Shown here in pieces: positions 2,583 to 30,768 of a stretch of 33,768 bases of DNA. Each line of letters opens with the position of its first letter. Position 1 is the stretch's first letter. Under the pieces are notes generated by a model. The model was not told the origin of the DNA and did no database searches. It saw only the letters and a list, made by a program, of their open reading frames with translations. Source of the stretch: an uncultured Candidatus Saccharibacteria bacterium (GTDB taxonomy: Bacteria; Patescibacteriota; Saccharimonadia; Saccharimonadales; Saccharimonadaceae); the NCBI GenBank assembly GCA_945916045.1, contig CAMEGH010000001.1:1-33768 (forward strand), in the 5' to 3' direction. A program made the position numbers and the translations under genes.

Positions 2583-3095
2583 GTGGCGCAAGCAAATCAC
2601 GTCGAAAAAACACTAGTACTTTTTAAACCAGATGCCGTACAGCGCGGAATTGTAGGCGAGATTTTGACTCGTTTTGAACGCGTTGGCCTGAAGATTGTTG
2701 GCACAAAAATGATCTTCCCAGACCGCGACCACTACTACGCACACTACGAATCAATCGGCAAAATGGTAACTCGCCGCGGCGACGGCGCGTTTCAGGTAAC
2801 GCTCGATTTTATGGGGCAGGGCCCAGTGATCGCCATGGTATTTGAAGGCGTTGAAGCAGTTGGTTTGGTGCGCAAAATGGTAGGCGGTACCGAACCAAAA
2901 TCAGCTGACCCAGGCACAATCCGCGGCGACTTTAGTCACATGAGCTTTGAATACGCAGACGGCAAAAAGAAGGGAATTCCAAACTTGATGCACGCCAGCG
3001 GCGACCCAGAAGAAGCCGAGCAAGAAATTGCACACTGGTTTAGCGACGACGAAATCTATAGCTACGAAATTGCTCACGAACGATTTTTGCGCTAA
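2583..3095 (+). CDS. ndk: nucleoside-diphosphate kinase
   Basis: EKTLVLFKPDAVQRGIVGEILTRFERVGLKIVG, GTIRGDF and NLMHASGD match NDK. GTG start follows an AAGGAG SD 7 nt upstream. Confidence 0.9.
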   Translation: MAQANHVEKTLVLFKPDAVQRGIVGEILTRFERVGLKIVGTKMIFPDRDHYYAHYESIGKMVTRRGDGAFQVTLDFMGQGPVIAMVFEGVEAVGLVRKMVGGTEPKSADPGTIRGDFSHMSFEYADGKKKGIPNLMHASGDPEEAEQEIAHWFSDDEIYSYEIAHERFLR

Positions 3096-3128
3096 GTTGC
3101 ACCTAGTCTGCGCAAAACCCGCGCACGC

Positions 3129-3158
3129 AAAACCTCCTCGCCAACAGAGGAGGTTTTT
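3129..3158 (+). terminator. intrinsic terminator after ndk
   Basis: Stem aacctcctc / gaggaggtt followed by TTT. A TATAAT at 3161-3166 follows and could drive the tRNA. Confidence 0.8.
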
Positions 3159-3177
3159 GCTATAATGCAAAGTACTC

Positions 3178-3254
3178 GCCTCGATAGCTCAACTGGATAG
3201 AGCAGTTCCGTCCTAAGGAAAAGGTTGTAGGTTCGACTCCTACTCGGGGTACCA
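3178..3254 (+). tRNA. tRNA-Arg(CCT)
   Basis: Hand-folded cloverleaf: acceptor gcctcga/tcggggt, D-stem gctc/gagc, anticodon loop gtCCTaa, T-arm gtagg-ttcgact-cctac, encoded CCA. Confidence 0.8.
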
Positions 3255-21255: not shown

Positions 21256-21702
21256 GCAGGCAGTGCACTAGATGATCGCTTGCGTTCTAATTTTAGGTAA
21301 CGTAAGAGGAAAGTCCGGGCAGCGTAGAACAAGATAGTTGCTAACGGCAACCGGGGGCGACCCTAGGGAAAGTGCCACAGAAACAAAACCGCCTCGCCAA
21401 AAGCCAGTGCTGCAAGGTCGTTTACGGCTCGGCAGTTACTGAGAGGTAAGGGTGAAAAGAGTGCCGTGCTTTTTCGGCGCGGGGCGAACTGTCTTCTCGT
21501 TTTTTGTGAAGGCAAGCGCCGGGTAAGAGCCCACAGCGACGCATGGTGACATGCGAAGGAGGTAAACCCTGTCTGCTGCAAGGAGGTGCTGGCGCATTGG
21601 CTGTTCGCCAGTCGGCATCGTTATCCGCTTGATCCGCTCGGCAATGGGCGGGCTAGATAGATGATCATCCACGACAGAACCCGGCTTACCGGTGCAGTGC
21701 CA
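21256..21702 (+). ncRNA. rnpB: RNase P RNA (bacterial type A-like)
   Basis: GAGGAAAGTCCGGGC (about 21307-21321), AGGGAAAGTGCCACAGAAA, GGTAAGGGTGAAAAGAGTGC and ACAGAACCCGGCTTAC (21674-21689). P1 pairs ggcagtgcac with gtgcagtgcc. TATAAT at 21246-21251. Ends are approximate. Confidence 0.9.
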
Positions 21703-21704
21703 AC

Positions 21705-24593: not shown

Positions 24594-25000
24594 GGGGCTG
24601 ATATAGCTTTCGACAATTGGACTTTAACAGAATATTCTGCAGATCGAACATGCACGATACGCATAATTTTAATTGCAAAATCAAACGTTGCAAACGCATT
24701 TGCTAGCCTAAAGAGCGCTTTCGCTGCTCCAAAGATGGCTTTTGCGCCAATCGCTGCCTAGTTTAGCGATCATTCTGTCTTAGCTACGCAACAGTGCTAA
24801 GCGGAGTGTTATACTTTTTGTTGCTTGCTGCGCGGGCAGGAAGCGGCTCCCGTGCGGGACTTTTTCCGCGTAACCGCCGCGTTTATTTTTGACTTATTTT
24901 ATAGAACGCGGTGGTTATAAAACATCTAAACGAGTCTATGTCTGTAGAGGAATATTTTGTTACCGGTTGGACCGGGGGGCAGTACCCCGCAGCTCCACCA
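24594..25000 (+). ncRNA. ssrA: tmRNA (transfer-messenger RNA)
   Basis: 5' GGGGCTGAT..TTTCGAC and 3' GGACCGGGG-GGCAGTA-CCCCG-CAGCTCC-ACCA. E. coli has GGACGCGGG-UUCAACU-CCCGC-CAGCUCC-ACCA; G3:U70 is preserved. The tag frame runs from GCA at 24675 to TAG at 24759-24761 and reads AKSNVANAFASLKSAFAAPKMAFAPIAA. Extended -10 TGgTATACT at 24576-24584. Confidence 0.9.
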
Positions 25001-25010
25001 TACTGTATGT

Positions 25011-25040
25011 AAAGCGCCTTATTGTGAGGCGTTTTTGTTT
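25011..25040 (+). terminator. intrinsic terminator after ssrA
   Basis: Stem aaagcgcct/aggcgtttt with a 7-nt loop, then TTGTTTT. Confidence 0.75.
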
Positions 25041-25133
25041 TGGCTTGAATATGGAACGTGAATGGATGACGGAACGCTGTGCTGCGATGGATAAGTGCCG
25101 GGCGCTGTAGGTTGCAGGAGGGGTAAAATCCCG

Positions 25134-25240
25134 GAAAATAAAAACAACCGCCTGCGAGGAACGGTTGTTTTTGTGTGGAGTTTTTTGAAGAGTATTCTGT
25201 TTATTTTTGAGTTCCTGGATAATTTTTTTATTCAAGAACT
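25134..25240 (-). ncRNA. candidate ~105-nt sRNA (promoter-to-terminator unit)
   Basis: Begins about 7 nt downstream of a perfect TTGACA-17-TATTAT promoter. It has an internal 8-bp hairpin agttcttg/caggaact. It ends at the terminator aacaaccg/cggttgtt (25143-25150 / 25162-25169) plus TTTTTATTTT. The only ORF (TTG start) reads through the terminator. Confidence 0.4.
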
Positions 25241-25246
25241 ACCCCT

Positions 25247-25275
25247 ATAATATGATGTCAAAGCGCTTGTGTCAA
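25247..25275 (-). promoter_or_regulatory. consensus sigma70 promoter (TTGACA-17-TATTAT)
   Basis: Minus strand reads ttgaca-caagcgctttgacatca-tattat. Confidence 0.55.
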
Positions 25276-26297
25276 CGATTTTGCAAAAGTTTTTTATCTT
25301 TTTTGTTTTAGCCTGTGGAAAACCCATATCTAGTGGTATCGACACAAAATCAACACTATGTAAATAGGGTGCGGGCGAACAATGATTGTAGCGCGTGGAA
25401 TTTGGGTGTTTGTAGGGTGGTGTAGTGTAGGTTGGGTGTTTTGTGAATGGAGGGTAGATGTTTGTTTTTGACGACGCGGGGATTATGTGGGTGTGGCGAC
25501 TGAGTGGGTAATTCTTGTGTGGTTGTGGTTGGCGGCAAAATTGTTACGTTGTTGACTTAAAAGTGCCTGCCGTAGATCTTTGCATCCACTATGTGCCGCA
25601 CATAGCGATGCAATGCGAGTACGCGTTTGCAGCGCAGGTTGGTTTTGTAGCAATATGAAGATTTGTAGCGCGTAGCGCAAAAAACCGCCGCGGCAAAGTT
25701 CGGTGCTTAATCGTCAAATTGGCGGGCGGAAATAATTTTGCGCCGCGTGTTGTTTTTTGCGGGTGGGAAAACAGCAAAAATAATACGCCGCAAAAATGGT
25801 GAGGCAAAATGTGCATGGCGTATGGCAGTTTTCGTAAAGACTTTTTTGCGTCTAATTTTTAACGTGCGGGGCAGCTACGCAAAAATCTTTGCTGTAGAAA
25901 GCGTGTGGGTTCGCGCGCAAAATAGCGATAAGTGTAATGCGCACGGCTGGCGCAAAAACAGTATTTCGTTGTAAATAAAGCATATGCTTTTTGGCGCAAA
26001 ATGTCAAAGGGAAAAAAGTAAATAAGTAATGTACGGGCAAAATAGCTCCAGCAGAGTAGGGTACTGTGGCGCTTTGCTGCATAAAAAAAGGGGGTGCAAT
26101 TACGCCACCCGCTCGCGTAAAAACAAGCACGTACACGGCAAAAAACCACAAATTTGACCGTCCTGGCGCAAATAAGTGCTCAATTAATATAATTATTTAC
26201 AACGTTATAATCACCACAACATATATAAAATAACAGAGGTACAAAAACGATGTAGAGAATAACTATTTTATTTACAACAATAAAAGCATAAAAAGTA

Positions 26298-26326
26298 TTG
26301 ACAAAAAGCGTAAGCCTTGCTATTAT
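26298..26326 (+). promoter_or_regulatory. consensus sigma70 promoter (TTGACA-17-TATTAT)
   Basis: ttgaca-aaaagcgtaagccttgc-tattat in an AT-rich context. The next credible CDS start is about 480 nt downstream. Confidence 0.6.
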
Positions 26327-26814
26327 GGGTACAAGCTTTTAGAAAAACAAACAAAAGCAAAAAACCTTAACAATCTGGCATATGTCGAAAACGATCTCGC
26401 AGCTCACATCACGTATGGTGTAGTTTGACGAAAAGTTGGCAGCTTCAATGACGATGCGCGGCTACGGCGACGGGTAAATCTTTTACTTTTTGTTGCTATG
26501 GTTACAACGCTTGTTTATTGGTGTTGCCGATGCTCCGTCAAATTTATTTGATGTTTGAGCGCACGGTATGCAAGTACCGATTGCACCTAGTTAATCCCTG
26601 TTTTACAAAAACAAGCAGTGTGACTACTAGGTGTGATCTGGGAACGGTCCGTAAGTTTAGATATGCTCGAACTTTGTTCGAGCGGTCAGTCGCCTTTGAG
26701 TAGTGATTGAGCCGTTTTGTCGCCCGCCCTTTTAATTGTTTTACAGCGGTGGTTGCCGGCAGGGGTTCGCAAAGTCACTACTCAGGCACCATAATCTTTA
26801 GTATACTACTGCTT

Positions 26815-27201
26815 ATGGTACAAAAAATTATTGGTATTGTTGGAATTGTCGCCGCAGGATTGCTGGTGTATATTTTGAACGCTACCACGCCTACCGAAGC
26901 CGGTGCTCTTGGGGTGTTGGCTGTTTTTTTATTGTCGTATATTCTGTTGGCCGCCGCGCTGACCTTTTTTATTTTTTGGCTGTACCGAGTGGTGATTCGC
27001 GTGTTTTGGAGTGATAAGCCAGATACCGGCCGGCAGCATTTTACATTGAAAAAATCCTATTATTATTCATCTGTGTTGGCGCTTGGGCCGGTGATGATGG
27101 TGAGTTTGCGATCAGTCGGGCAGGACGGCTGGGTGCAATATGGCTTGATGCTTTTCTTGCTGTTTTTGGGGTGCGTTTACGTATCGCGCCAAGCCTCGTA
27201 A
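26815..27201 (+). CDS. small integral membrane protein (hypothetical), first gene of the T4CP-like cluster
   Basis: MVQKIIGIVGIVAAGLLVYIL... with 3-4 TM helices. The ATG lies 7 nt downstream of TATACT (26802-26807). Confidence 0.6.
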   Translation: MVQKIIGIVGIVAAGLLVYILNATTPTEAGALGVLAVFLLSYILLAAALTFFIFWLYRVVIRVFWSDKPDTGRQHFTLKKSYYYSSVLALGPVMMVSLRSVGQDGWVQYGLMLFLLFLGCVYVSRQAS

Positions 27202-27696: not shown

Positions 27697-30600
27697 ATGA
27701 TTGGCGTAATTGTAGCAGTATTCTTTATTATCGTAATCCTGATTGTGGCAGGCGGGCTTATTTATTATGCTTACCAGGGAACGCTGCGCGAGGCAAAAAA
27801 TTACGAACGTGGCTTAAAAATGGTGCCAATGTTGATTCATTTGCCGCCGCCAAGCGACGACCTTGAGACAGGCGGGCGTGATGCGCGCGATGTGACCGAG
27901 GAGCTTTTGAGCCAAGCGCAAGTGATGTATAACATTATTGCCAGTACGTCGCTAAAAGGGTTTAAGCACCGTATTTATGGCCAACGCCACGTATCGTTTG
28001 AGCTTGTCGCTAAAAATGGACTCATTTATTATTACGCGGTGGTGCCAATTGTGTTGGTAGATACTGTGAAGCAGGCGATTGCGGCGGCGTATCCGTCGGC
28101 GCGGCTAGAAGAGGTCGAAGAGCATACAATTTTTGCTGAAGGCGGGCGCATGACGGGCATAATTGGTGGCGAATTTACGCTGCAAAAAAGCCACGCCTAC
28201 CCAATTGCAACGTATCAAGAATCGAAACGAGATGCTTCGCGTGCGCTGCTTAATGCGCTTTCGACCGCAACGACGAAGGACGGCATCGGCATTCAATTTT
28301 TAATACGCCCGGCGCAAGAAGGCTGGGTAAAATCGTCGCTTGATACGGTAGAGCGCATCAAAAAGGATCGTGCCACGGGTAAATCGTCAGGCTCGGTTAT
28401 TGGCAAACACGGTATGCGCGGCGTGGCCGAAGTATTGTGGAAACCACCAAACGCGGAAAATTACCAAGAAGAGCACAATGTTGATACGCAACTAACCGCG
28501 CTTGAGCAGCAGTCGATTGATGCGATTGAAGAAAAAACTCGCTATCCGGGCTACGAAACGCTGATTCGCGTGGTGGTTTCTTCTGACACTGCAATGCGCT
28601 CACAAACGCTCATGAAAAACGTCGTGGCGTCGTTTTCGCTGTTTGATTCACCAAGCTATAACGGCTTTAAATTTATTCCCACGCGCAATGTTGACGATTT
28701 GGTAACGTCCTACATTTTCCGCTTTTTCCCGCAATCGGTAAAGACGAATATTCTTAATTCTGTAGAATTGGCGACGCTTTTCCACTTGCCAGATCAAAAG
28801 AATATTCCAACCGCGCAGGTGAAGCGCCAAATGAGCAAGCAGGTTGACGGCCCAACCGAGCCAATGGATAGCGGATTTTTGCTTGGCTATAACGAATTCC
28901 GTGGCCTGAAAAAGCCAATTCGCCTGAGCGACAACGATCGCCGCCGCCATTTGTATATGATTGGGCAAACTGGTACTGGTAAGTCAAAATTCCTTGAAAA
29001 TTTGGCCTTCCAAGATATGTTGGACGGGCGCGGGTTTGCGTTTATTGATCCGCACGGCGACTCTGCCGAGGTGTTGATGGGCGCGGTGCCAAAAGAGCGC
29101 GTCGAAGACATTATTTACTTTAATCCATCCGACATGGACAACCCAATCGGGCTCAATATGTTTGAATTTAACACGCCCGACCAAAAGGACTTTTTGGTCC
29201 AGGAGGCAATCGGGATGTTGTACGGATTGTACGACCCGGGCCACACCGGTATTATTGGGCCGCGTTTGGAGCATATTTTCCGTAACGCGGCGCTGCTATT
29301 GATGTCCGACCCGGCAGGCGGCACGTTTATCGATATTCCAAAGCTGTTGGTCGACCAAGAATTTATGAAGAGCAAGCTAAAATATGTGACCGACCCGACC
29401 GTGCTCGAATTTTGGACAAAAGAATGGCCGGCCTCGCAAAAATCAAGCGAAGCGGGTGAATTGGTGAGCTGGGTGGTTTCCAAATTTGGGCCGTTCCTTT
29501 CCAACGACGCCATGCGCAATATTATTGGCCAAACTAAATCTGGCTTTAATTTGCGCGACATTATGGACAACAAAAAAATCCTTATCGTCAATCTTTCAAA
29601 GGGTAAAATGGGCGAATTGAATTCTAAGTTGCTTGGTATTATCTTTGTGATGAAGTTCCAAGCGGCAGCCATGGGGCGCGCCGATATGCCAGAAGACGAG
29701 CGCGAAGATTTTAGCTTGTATGTCGACGAGTTCCAGAACTTTATGACCGAAAGTTTTGAGTCGATTTTGTCGGAAGCGCGAAAATACCGTTTGAGTTTGG
29801 TGCTTGCGAACCAGTTTATGACGCAGCTAACCGATAAGATCCGCGAGGCGATTATCGGAAACGTCGGTACGGTGATTAGCGGTCGTATTGGTATTACCGA
29901 CGCCGAAATGCTGGTGAAGAAGTTTGAGCCGGTGTTTAGCGCGGAAGATATGACAAAAATGCCGAACTTCCAGGGAATCGCCAGCGTGATGATTAATAAC
30001 ACGCCGTCTGCGCCGTTTAGCATGTCGTTTACGCCACCGCTTGCGAAGTCGCAAGAGAAGATTGCGGCTGCAATGAAGCGGCTTGCTGCCACGAAATATG
30101 GCCGCCCGCGTGCAGAAGTTGAGGCAGAGATTAAGAAGCGTATTGCCGCGAATGTCGGGCAGCCAGGTGCGCGACCAGCGGGTGTGGCTCCGGGCGGTGC
30201 GCCAAAGAAGCCGGGTAGTTCGTCGTTCTTGGATGACTGGTTGGCGAAACGGCAACAATCGGGTGGCGCGCGACCAGGGGTGATTAAGCAGCCGACTAGT
30301 GCTCCGCAACAACGACCGGCTGGGCCCGGGCCGCAATCTCAATCCCTGCAGCCAATGCCGCAACAAGCACCGCAGCCGCTCACGGGTGCACCGGGCGGAA
30401 TGCAGCAACCAGCGCCGCAATCTATGGCGCCACCACAAATGGCTGCACCGGCGCAATCGCAACCGATGGCAGGTGCTGCACCAGCTCAGGCGCAACAGCA
30501 GCCAATGCAATCATCGGCGTCGGGCCAGTTTGGCGAACAGCCTGTGCAGGCTCCACAGCAGCAGTTTGGCGGGCAGTCGCCGCAGCCGCAATCACAAACG

Positions 30601-30768
30601 CAACCAGTAGCCGCACCGGCGCAATTTGCGCCCCAGCAGTCAGAAAACGGCTCGTTTGGCGCACCAGCTCAAACTGCGCCAATGCCACAAACTCCGCCGG
30701 TAGCACCGCCGCAAACGAGCGCTCCGGTGCCAACGCCTACTGAAGATGGCATTTTGCGCCTGCGTTAG
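27697..30768 (+). CDS. type IV coupling protein-like (TraD/TraG/VirD4-family) P-loop ATPase with N-terminal TM anchor and a ~200-aa Gln/Pro/Ala-rich tail
   Basis: N-terminal TM helix IGVIVAVFFIIVILIVAGGLIYYA. Walker A HLYMIGQTGTGKSKFL followed by FAFIDPHGD. Walker B FSLYVDEFQNF. SEARKYRLSLVLANQFMTQL. The C-terminus is low-complexity PQQAPQP... Confidence 0.75.
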   Translation: MIGVIVAVFFIIVILIVAGGLIYYAYQGTLREAKNYERGLKMVPMLIHLPPPSDDLETGGRDARDVTEELLSQAQVMYNIIASTSLKGFKHRIYGQRHVSFELVAKNGLIYYYAVVPIVLVDTVKQAIAAAYPSARLEEVEEHTIFAEGGRMTGIIGGEFTLQKSHAYPIATYQESKRDASRALLNALSTATTKDGIGIQFLIRPAQEGWVKSSLDTVERIKKDRATGKSSGSVIGKHGMRGVAEVLWKPPNAENYQEEHNVDTQLTALEQQSIDAIEEKTRYPGYETLIRVVVSSDTAMRSQTLMKNVVASFSLFDSPSYNGFKFIPTRNVDDLVTSYIFRFFPQSVKTNILNSVELATLFHLPDQKNIPTAQVKRQMSKQVDGPTEPMDSGFLLGYNEFRGLKKPIRLSDNDRRRHLYMIGQTGTGKSKFLENLAFQDMLDGRGFAFIDPHGDSAEVLMGAVPKERVEDIIYFNPSDMDNPIGLNMFEFNTPDQKDFLVQEAIGMLYGLYDPGHTGIIGPRLEHIFRNAALLLMSDPAGGTFIDIPKLLVDQEFMKSKLKYVTDPTVLEFWTKEWPASQKSSEAGELVSWVVSKFGPFLSNDAMRNIIGQTKSGFNLRDIMDNKKILIVNLSKGKMGELNSKLLGIIFVMKFQAAAMGRADMPEDEREDFSLYVDEFQNFMTESFESILSEARKYRLSLVLANQFMTQLTDKIREAIIGNVGTVISGRIGITDAEMLVKKFEPVFSAEDMTKMPNFQGIASVMINNTPSAPFSMSFTPPLAKSQEKIAAAMKRLAATKYGRPRAEVEAEIKKRIAANVGQPGARPAGVAPGGAPKKPGSSSFLDDWLAKRQQSGGARPGVIKQPTSAPQQRPAGPGPQSQSLQPMPQQAPQPLTGAPGGMQQPAPQSMAPPQMAAPAQSQPMAGAAPAQAQQQPMQSSASGQFGEQPVQAPQQQFGGQSPQPQSQTQPVAAPAQFAPQQSENGSFGAPAQTAPMPQTPPVAPPQTSAPVPTPTEDGILRLR

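What the first reader, a model, noticed from the sequence alone, without database searches (positions are those of the whole stretch)
26298..26814. Consensus promoter feeding a ~480-nt ORF-less, hairpin-rich RNA upstream of the T4CP-like cluster
**Seen:**
- A perfect TTGACA-17nt-TATTAT predicts a transcription start near 26333.
- From there to the next gene start (26815) only trivial ORFs occur: 13 aa, 9 aa, and a 61-aa TTG-start ORF without an SD.
- The transcript would contain a 5-bp hairpin at 26564-26579.
- It would contain an 8-bp stem cacctagt/actaggtg (26584-26591 / 26626-26633).
- It would contain a perfect 8-bp hairpin gctcgaac-ttt-gttcgagc (26665-26683).
- A 9+3-bp long-range helix gagtagtga/tcactactc (26698-26706 / 26775-26783) closes a ~90-nt domain. 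That domain ends just before the -10 element of the downstream leaderless gene.

**Inference:** a large structured ncRNA, or a regulatory leader controlling the membrane-protein / T4CP-like operon.
Basis: partly seen in the sequence, partly recalled or inferred. Interest (0 to 1): 0.62.

Follow-up and report, generated by a model that had tools for sequence, protein, structure and literature searches.

The report
New large structured RNA of Saccharibacteria
The ORF-less stretch is a real, expressed, roughly 460-nt many-helix RNA gene found across Saccharibacteria (TM7) relatives of this genome, always next to a small membrane-protein gene; it matches no Rfam family, and its job is still unknown.

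Summary

They are much more than chance:
- About 100 Saccharibacteria loci carry the same element at the same place.
- Sequence conservation begins exactly at the predicted start, A26333.
- No ORF is conserved.
- On a plain MAFFT alignment of 41 homologues, 47 predicted pairs are 94% paired, against 30-46% when the partners are slid.
- There are 357 compensatory cells, against 35-64 when slid.
- G·U outnumbers A·C by 194 to 26, so the structure belongs to the + strand RNA.

Metatranscriptome contigs cover this RNA but not the 1.3 kb upstream of it. In several runs they also miss the neighbouring genes. No Rfam 15 family matches at E<=10, here or in six homologues.

The downstream 4-TM gene has its own TGnTAnnnT box 6-8 nt before its ATG, so it is leaderless. 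One deep lineage has a short RNA form that ends in an intrinsic terminator. The RNA is therefore a gene of its own, not only a leader.

Three more distant lineages lack both the RNA and the membrane gene at this locus.

Best guess, inferred only: the RNA forms a complex with the adjacent membrane protein, as OLE RNA does with OapA. It is not an OLE homologue.

The parts
26298..26326 (+). Sigma-70-type promoter: -35 TTGACA (26298-303), 17-nt spacer, TG (26318-19), -10 TATTAT (26321-26)
   Evidence: scores it 11 of 12 with TG. The -35 and TGnTAnnnT are conserved in the alignment of 72 relatives, while the 6 nt between the -10 and the start are not.
26333..26795 (+). The structured RNA, about 460 nt. 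The 5' end is inferred from the promoter and from where conservation begins. The 3' end is approximate, just after the conserved CUCAGGC tail.
   Evidence: RNA contigs.
26333..26375 (+). Near-invariant A-rich 5' segment AAGCUUUUAGAAAAACAAACAAAAGCAAAAAACCUUAACAAU. It can form a 5'-terminal GCUUUU/AAAAGC hairpin.
   Evidence: 85-97% identical in nearly all loci. It occurs once in the window, and once per locus in the 35 loci that carry the exact 19-mer.
26376..26423 (+). Variable linker with no conserved small ORF
   Evidence: In about 17 of 40 lineages, but not in this window, it carries CUGACCGC, which is complementary to the invariant GCGGUCAG.
26425..26541 (+). P1 (26425-30 / 26536-41) and P2 (26436-48 / 26518-30). 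They enclose a variable insert at 26449-26517.
   Evidence: helix 1 is 91% paired and helix 2 is 95% paired, with 8 of 11 pairs showing changes on both sides.
26563..26652 (+). Middle domain: P4 (26563-77 / 26642-52, weaker support), P5 (26581-91 / 26626-36) and P5a (26598-603 / 26613-17). Invariant AGUACC, GUUAAUCC and GGAAC.
   Evidence: helix 3 has 9 of 9 pairs with changes on both sides..
26664..26690 (+). P6 hairpin (26664-72 / 26676-84) followed by the invariant GCGGUCAG
   Evidence: The top mutual-information pairs fall here.
26692..26787 (+). P7 closing helix (26692-708 / 26773-87) around P8 (about 26719-28 / 26746-63)
   Evidence: Model R1 of this domain finds exactly one copy in the window, at 26661-26792.
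26802..26817 (+). -10 box TATACT (26802-07), 7 nt, then ATG 26815: separate leaderless promoter of the next gene
   Evidence: most of 50 relatives have TAnnnT, usually 6-8 nt before the ATG, and half of all 50 carry TG in front of it.
26815..27201 (+). Co-inherited 128-aa protein with four membrane helices. Candidate partner of the RNA (inferred).
   Evidence: It is absent together with the RNA in L201, L204 and L206.

Best explanation
**What it is (shown).** This is a separate gene for a conserved RNA of about 460 nt with many helices. It belongs to the Saccharibacteria lineages whose T4CP-like protein is at least 56% identical to this one. It is transcribed from its own near-consensus promoter, starting at A26333.

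**Layout (shown).**
- An invariant single-stranded A-rich 5' segment.
- A core of eight or nine covarying helices (P1-P8).
- Variable peripheral inserts.

**How it most likely works (inferred).** It acts as a stable folded RNA, not as a message. It probably forms an RNA-protein complex at the membrane with the small four-helix membrane protein encoded directly downstream. The two are gained and lost together. This is the way OLE RNA works with OapA.

Transcription also runs on into the membrane-protein / T4CP-like operon, so a second, cis role is possible.
For: **Distribution**
- The element sits at the same place in every locus with enough upstream DNA, among 80 genome loci found through the T4CP-like protein.
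- It is also present in about 20 metagenome loci found through the RNA's own 5' motif. Each of these is followed by the membrane gene.

**Noncoding and structured**
- No ORF is conserved.
- 94% of cells are paired, against 30-46% when the partners are slid.
- 37 of 47 pairs show changes on both sides.
- 0 of 500 shuffles reach the observed values.
- G·U 194 against A·C 26.

**Start site**
- Conservation starts exactly at the predicted start.

**RNA evidence**
- Run X24 covers 26450-27129 and the genes downstream, but nothing in 25002-26337.
- In this stretch, runs X25 and X26 hold only tmRNA and this RNA.
- In four runs laid on Nanosynbacter locus L063, the RNA region is the only sizeable stretch of 5 kb that is covered.

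**A gene of its own**
- The next gene has its own leaderless -10 box.
- L203 has a roughly 240-nt short form that ends in an intrinsic terminator, followed by TATAAT and the ATG.

**Link to the membrane protein**
- The RNA and the membrane gene are both absent from L201, L204 and L206, which keep the T4CP-like gene and gyrB.
- The protein folds as a confident four-helix membrane bundle, with a basic loop between helices 2 and 3.

**OLE precedent**
- PMC12265935.
Against: **No direct evidence for the partnership.**
- Nothing shows that the RNA and the protein bind each other.
- Gene order is very stable in Saccharibacteria, so adjacency is weak evidence.
- The basic loop is variable in sequence, and the positive-inside rule alone could explain it.
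- The protein shows no OapA/CNNM likeness by Pfam or Foldseek.

**Abundance is modest in one run.** In X24 the RNA contig has depth 14, only 2-3 times that of the downstream mRNAs and 100 times below tmRNA.

**Read-through is real.**
- RNA contigs cross into the membrane gene.
- Four species have an SD sequence instead of a -10 box.

**Limits of the data.**
- The 5' and 3' ends are not mapped, because only assembled contigs were available.
Confidence: 0.4

Rival explanations
1. It is a long structured 5' leader acting in cis. The fold senses a ligand or binds a protein, and so sets how much transcription from the strong upstream promoter continues into the membrane-protein / PQ-protein / T4CP-like operon. 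It could also act by occluding the downstream promoter.
For: - It lies upstream of the same gene in every RNA-bearing locus examined.
- An RNA contig spans 26450-27129 without a break, and the operon is transcribed while 25002-26337 is silent.
- Four species (L022, L038, L043, L046) have a strong SD sequence instead of the -10 box, so there the gene must be read from an upstream transcript.
- L203 has the classic order of promoter, fold, terminator, gene.
Against: - Most of 50 relatives place a TAnnnT box 6-8 nt before an ATG that has no SD. Transcripts from the upstream promoter could therefore hardly translate that gene.
- No terminator or SD-masking helix is conserved at the 3' end.
- About 460 nt with eight or nine helices is far beyond known riboswitch leaders.
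- The nucleotides are better conserved than the downstream protein, which is only 26-73% identical.
- In several runs only the RNA part is seen.
Confidence: 0.3
2. It is a housekeeping RNA acting in trans whose partners are encoded elsewhere, for example one bound to RNA polymerase, the ribosome or an RNase, like 6S or Ms1. Its place next to the membrane gene would then be only conserved gene order.
For: - It lies in a cluster of housekeeping RNA genes: RNase P RNA at 21260-21704 and tmRNA at 24594-25000.
- tmRNA lies upstream in all homologous loci tested.
- It has a near-consensus promoter.
- It is present in every locus whose T4CP-like protein is at least 56% identical.
Against: - It is missing, together with the membrane gene, from three more distant lineages at this locus.
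- It matches no 6S, Ms1 or SRP model at E<=10.
- Its branched fold is unlike the rod with a central bubble of 6S RNA.
Confidence: 0.2
3. It is not an RNA but a DNA element (a transfer origin next to the T4CP-like gene, or a replication or regulatory region), or a decayed gene, or a chance fold.
For: - It lies next to a T4CP-like gene and a few kb from gyrB.
- It is rich in hairpins.
- The - strand of several homologues also folds well.
Against: - G·U outnumbers A·C by 194 to 26 in the pairs, which fits one strand only.
- It is present in RNA libraries while the adjacent spacer is not.
- The promoter is conserved and conservation begins at the start site.
- Covariation runs through long-range helices.
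- No ORF is conserved.
- The cluster is a core gene set of the class, and none of the window proteins scanned against Pfam is a relaxase.
Confidence: 0.03

Closest known systems
OLE RNA with OapA (ornate, large, extremophilic RNA of Bacillota)
   Same: - A large, many-helix, highly conserved noncoding RNA.
- The gene immediately downstream encodes a small protein with four membrane helices and positive charges on the cytoplasmic side (PMC12265935).
- It is co-transcribed with neighbouring genes.
- Its function cannot be read from the sequence.
   Different: - No match to the OLE model or any other Rfam model at E<=10.
- About 460 nt against about 600 nt.
- Found in a different phylum (Patescibacteria/CPR).
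- The membrane protein has no OapA/CNNM (DUF21) signal in Pfam or Foldseek.
- Binding and membrane localisation are untested.
Other large bacterial RNAs of unknown or recently found function (raiA, ROOL, GOLLD, HEARO/omega RNA)
   Same: Similar size class, ornate covarying structure, restriction to certain lineages, and high expression in some cases.
   Different: - No covariance-model match to any of them.
- No IscB or TnpB gene adjacent among the neighbours scanned.
- It is fixed at one chromosomal locus, as a single copy in the 34-kb window and in each fetched locus.
Riboswitch or protein-binding 5' leaders
   Same: It sits between a promoter and the first gene of an operon. In L203 an intrinsic terminator follows the fold.
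   Different: - It is several times larger.
- No conserved expression platform exists.
- The next gene has its own leaderless promoter in most species.

Membership tests
OLE RNA (Rfam family) | Matches the OLE covariance model (conserved sequence and structure) | tested here: not met
   cmscan against all 4227 Rfam 15 families gave no hit in the RNA at E<=10, in the window or in six diverse homologous loci. The one overlapping hit was a minus-strand VrrA match at E 8.8.
OLE RNA (Rfam family) | The gene immediately downstream encodes OapA, a four-helix membrane protein related to the CNNM/DUF21 transmembrane region | tested here: not met
   A small four-helix membrane protein is indeed encoded downstream. 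However, Pfam gives only sub-threshold PIG-Y and DUF4271 hits, and Foldseek against the PDB gives nothing below E=1. This is a likeness of arrangement, not of descent.
OLE RNA (Rfam family) | The RNA binds the membrane protein and localises to the membrane | not testable with these tools
   Needs binding assays, or co-expression with imaging.
Riboswitch / cis-regulatory leader | An expression platform: a conserved terminator/antiterminator, or a helix that masks the ribosome-binding site of the regulated gene | tested here: inconclusive
   None is conserved in the main family. L203 alone has a terminator after the RNA. Four species have an SD sequence in place of the -10 box.
Riboswitch / cis-regulatory leader | Matches a known aptamer or leader family | tested here: not met
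   No Rfam match.
6S RNA / Ms1 (RNA polymerase-binding RNAs) | Matches the family model; a rod-like hairpin with a large central bubble | tested here: not met
   No Rfam match at E<=10. The consensus fold is branched, with two long-range closing helices.
SRP RNA, tmRNA, RNase P RNA | Matches the family model | tested here: not met
   tmRNA and RNase P RNA are found elsewhere in the window. No SRP match occurs in the region.
Transfer origin (oriT) or other DNA hairpin element | Pairing that is equally good on both strands, no need for transcription, and a relaxase nearby | tested here: not met
   G·U 194 against A·C 26. The element is transcribed. None of the nine window proteins scanned against Pfam is a relaxase.

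The most novel reading that the evidence does not exclude
The RNA is the nucleic-acid subunit of a membrane-anchored complex peculiar to these ultra-small epibiotic bacteria. The four-helix protein would hold it at the membrane. It would work with the orphan T4CP-like (DUF8128) ATPase encoded two genes downstream, either as a cofactor or as cargo passed towards the host cell.
Probability: 0.07. Interest if true: 0.95.

Novelty: new variant of a known kind. Interest (0 to 1): 0.78.

Why it matters
**Rarity.** Large, highly structured bacterial RNAs are few. RNase P RNA and tmRNA have long-known functions, while most others (OLE, GOLLD, ROOL, raiA) were characterised only recently or remain without a known function. 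Each of these has opened new biology.

**Setting.** This one lies in Saccharibacteria, whose genomes are small. Keeping 460 nt of noncoding sequence, better conserved than the protein next to it, argues for an important role.

**Tractability.** It sits at the head of a cluster with an orphan T4CP-like ATPase. The literature says that this ATPase may have been taken over for an unknown function (PMC12102498). Cultured, genetically tractable strains now exist, so the RNA can be tested directly.

**Annotation.** It gives a new RNA family for annotating this group. Rfam 15 has no family for it, and the held literature showed no description.

Tried and rejected
**Searches that found nothing**
- Rfam at gathering and at E<=10, on the window and on homologues: no family.
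- Coding potential: no conserved ORF or leader peptide.
- Mutual information for pseudoknots: the top pairs are the nested helices only. The rest looks like phylogenetic noise.
- Literature: nothing in the held library on structured RNAs of Saccharibacteria.
- Earlier notes of this scan added only context.

**Ideas that held only in part**
- A pairing between the linker motif CUGACCGC and the invariant GCGGUCAG holds in about 17 of 40 lineages. It does not hold in this window or in Nanosynbacter, so it is not a family feature.

**Ideas that failed**
- OapA-like fold of the membrane protein: the AlphaFold2 model is confident (pLDDT 88), but Foldseek gives no match below E=1.
- Runs X18 and X30-X32 turned out to look like DNA. 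They say nothing on transcript ends.
- The metagenome scan with the 5' 19-mer mostly hit coding DNA. Many of these hits look like lepA coding for KLLEKQK, judged by eye. About 20 of the 120 hits were the RNA.

**Not possible**
No whole-genome search for SRP or 6S RNA, or for displaced copies, could be done.

Full report
**Setting**

The window comes from a Saccharibacteria (TM7) genome. The 1023-aa T4CP-like protein at 27697-30768 has thousands of close relatives, and every one that carries a name is labelled Candidatus Saccharibacteria or Saccharimonadales.

The window also holds RNase P RNA (21260-21704) and tmRNA (24594-25000). The finding lies at the 3' end of a 1.8-kb ORF-poor gap that follows tmRNA.

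**Check of the observation**

- *Promoter.* TTGACA lies at 26298-26303, followed by a 17-nt spacer and TATTAT at 26321-26326, with TG at 26318-19. It is the best-scoring promoter-like site of the region.
- *ORFs.* Only trivial ORFs lie between 26333 and 26814.
The 5-bp hairpin is one base off, and comparison does not support it.
- *Folding.* The + strand of 26333-26814 folds with z = -4.77 and the - strand with z = -0.87. Ten diverse homologues all give + strand z <= -4.6.

**Conservation**

I fetched 80 genome loci through the T4CP-like protein.

- *Conserved blocks.* BLAST of 25001-26814 against these loci shows two blocks conserved across the class. One is on the minus strand at 25135-25297. 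The other begins at the -10 box and covers 26333-26374.
- *Position.* In almost every locus the second block lies 360-580 nt upstream of the homologue of the 128-aa membrane protein. The loci where the anchor search failed also carry the element, or are cut off by a contig end.
- *Pattern.* The alignment of 72 distinct sequences shows invariant -35 and TGnTAnnnT boxes. Six variable bases follow, and then near-invariant sequence starts exactly at A26333. After that, conserved blocks alternate with variable inserts as far as about 26790.
- *Coding.* No ORF is conserved in position or frame. No short ORF follows the 5' segment.

**Structure**

RNAalifold on a plain MAFFT alignment of 41 sequences (<90% identical; A1) predicts 47 pairs in six helices. 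Counting these pairs gives the following:

| Measure | Observed | Partners slid by 1-3 columns |
|---|---|---|
| Cells paired | 94% | 30-46% |
| Cells with changes on both sides | 357 | 35-64 |
| Pairs with changes on both sides | 37 of 47 | 13-18 |

None of 500 shuffles reached any observed measure. The alignment was not fitted to the structure.

In the paired cells G·U occurs 194 times and A·C 26 times. The structure therefore belongs to the + strand transcript and not to duplex DNA or the other strand.

Helices in window coordinates:

| Helix | 5' strand | 3' strand | Note |
|---|---|---|---|
| P1 | 26425-30 | 26536-41 | |
| P2 | 26436-48 | 26518-30 | |
| P3 | 26531-34 | 26558-61 | |
| P4 | 26563-77 | 26642-52 | weaker support |
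| P5 | 26581-91 | 26626-36 | |
| P5a | 26598-603 | 26613-17 | |
| P6 | 26664-72 | 26676-84 | |
| P7 | 26692-708 | 26773-87 | |
| P8 | about 26719-28 | about 26746-63 | |

A covariance model of the P6-P8 domain finds exactly one copy in the window, and one in each RNA-bearing locus it was run on, short-form L203 excepted.

**Known families**

cmscan against all 4227 Rfam 15 families gives nothing for this RNA at E<=10, in the window or in six diverse homologous loci. tmRNA is found in each of those loci. The held literature has nothing on structured RNAs of Saccharibacteria.

**Expression**

Only assembled contigs were available, so they show presence and not transcript ends.

- *Run X24 (metatranscriptome).* It covers tmRNA (depth 1444), 26450-27129 (depth 14) and the downstream genes (depth 4-9). 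It covers nothing in 25002-26337.
- *Runs X25 and X26.* Within the 5-kb stretch they hold only tmRNA and pieces of this RNA.
- *Nanosynbacter locus L063.* In four independent runs the RNA region (2779-3190) is the only sizeable stretch of 5 kb that is covered.
- *What this means.* The region upstream of the predicted start is silent. The RNA is present, often above the level of the neighbouring mRNAs. Some transcripts run on into the next gene.
- *Caveat.* These runs were picked because they hold words of the RNA, so they cannot give absolute abundance.

**Leader or gene?**

- *Own promoter of the next gene.* Most of 50 distinct relatives have a TAnnnT hexamer just before the membrane gene's ATG. 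In 34 of them it lies 6-8 nt upstream, and 25 of the 50 have TG in front of it. Usually no SD sequence is present. The hexamer varies as a -10 box does: TATAGT, TATGAT, TATACT, TACAAT, TATAAT. That gene therefore has its own promoter and a leaderless message. A transcript from 26333 could hardly translate it.
- *Exceptions.* Four species have GGAGG-type SD sequences instead. There the gene must be read from an upstream transcript.
- *Short form with a terminator.* In locus L203 (T4CP-like protein 58% identical) the RNA is a short form of about 240 nt. It keeps the 5' motif, the P1/P2 core and the P7/P8 domain. It ends in a clear intrinsic terminator, followed by TATAAT and the ATG of the membrane gene.

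Together these points favour a separate RNA gene with leaky read-through.

**Link to the neighbours**

- *Unbiased sample.* A metagenome scan with the RNA's own 5' 19-mer gave about 20 true hits. In each one the membrane gene follows, and then the PQ-rich protein and the T4CP-like gene where the contig allows. The remaining hits were coding DNA, many of them apparently lepA.
- *Deeper lineages with the pair.* L208 and L209 (60% and 56% identity) keep a divergent RNA plus a leaderless membrane gene.
- *Deeper lineages without the pair.* L201, L204 and L206 (43-53% identity) keep the order small protein, DUF8128 T4CP-like gene, gyrB. They have neither the RNA nor the membrane gene at this locus, and no room for them.

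The RNA and the membrane gene thus behave as one module placed in front of an older gene pair.

**The membrane protein**

It has four confident helices (pLDDT 88), conserved TP..GPLG and YY.SS motifs, and a basic but variable loop between helices 2 and 3. It matches no Pfam family above the curated threshold and no solved fold.

**Mechanism**

*Shown:* a conserved, structured, transcribed noncoding RNA with its own promoter.

*Inferred:* it works as a folded RNA together with the adjacent membrane protein, as OLE RNA does with OapA. In that system the most common gene immediately downstream encodes a four-helix membrane protein with a positive cytoplasmic face, which binds the RNA and brings it to the membrane (PMC12265935).

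Membership in the OLE family was tested and is not met. The likeness is one of arrangement only.

The T4CP-like gene of Patescibacteria usually lies far from virB4. In strain ML1 it was not essential for epibiotic growth, and it may have been taken over for another function (PMC12102498). This leaves room for a link with the RNA, but nothing here shows one.

*My odds:*

| Reading | Odds |
|---|---|
| Real structured RNA gene | about 0.95 |
| Partnership with the membrane protein | about 0.4 |
| cis leader | about 0.3 |
| Unrelated housekeeping RNA | about 0.2 |
| DNA element or chance | about 0.03 |

**Limits**

- The ends of the transcript are not mapped.
- P4 and P8 are less certain than the other helices.
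- E-values from model R1 are rough.

Noticed in passing
window 25135-25297 (minus strand): A block of about 150 nt is conserved at 70-89% identity in nearly all Saccharibacteria loci. It carries a perfect TTGACA-17-TATTAT promoter on the minus strand and an intrinsic terminator. It looks like a second conserved small RNA gene. It has no Rfam match apart from weak STnc240 noise.
   Followed up: partly
window 25360-26185: The ORF-poor spacer between that block and the RNA promoter is not conserved even in the closest relative, L005, whose RNA region is 80% identical. It is rich in GCAAAA / CTGGCGCAAA words. No RNA contig covered it in run X24.
   Followed up: partly
loci L011, L012, L014, L021, L025, L026, L040 and others, linker after the 5' motif: About 17 of 40 lineages carry CUGACCGC in the otherwise variable linker. 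It is complementary to the invariant GCGGUCAG after P6, so it may form a lineage-specific long-range pairing. It is absent in this window and in Nanosynbacter.
   Followed up: yes
window 26449-26517 and homologous inserts: In most lineages the insert enclosed by P2 holds a hairpin followed by a conserved ACGCACCUUU. The window's own clade (L005, L003, L004) lacks this motif.
   Followed up: no
L013:2947-3124 and L019:2858-3033: Two species have an extra insert of about 45 nt inside the P7/P8 domain. This shows that the peripheral parts of the RNA tolerate expansion.
   Followed up: no
window 26802-26817 and homologues: The 128-aa membrane-protein gene appears to be leaderless in most Saccharibacteria, with an extended -10 box 6-8 nt before the ATG. 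Four species have switched to a GGAGG ribosome-binding site.
   Followed up: yes
proteins P0126-P0134; locus L206: Some relatives of the T4CP-like (DUF8128) protein are giants of 1400-2000 aa. Across distant lineages the gene stays a few genes or fewer from gyrB.
   Followed up: no
L203:2604-2996: In the lineage with the short RNA form, the membrane protein has a shorter loop between helices 2 and 3 and an extra basic N-terminal tail. This could be co-change of the RNA and the protein, but it rests on one case.
   Followed up: no
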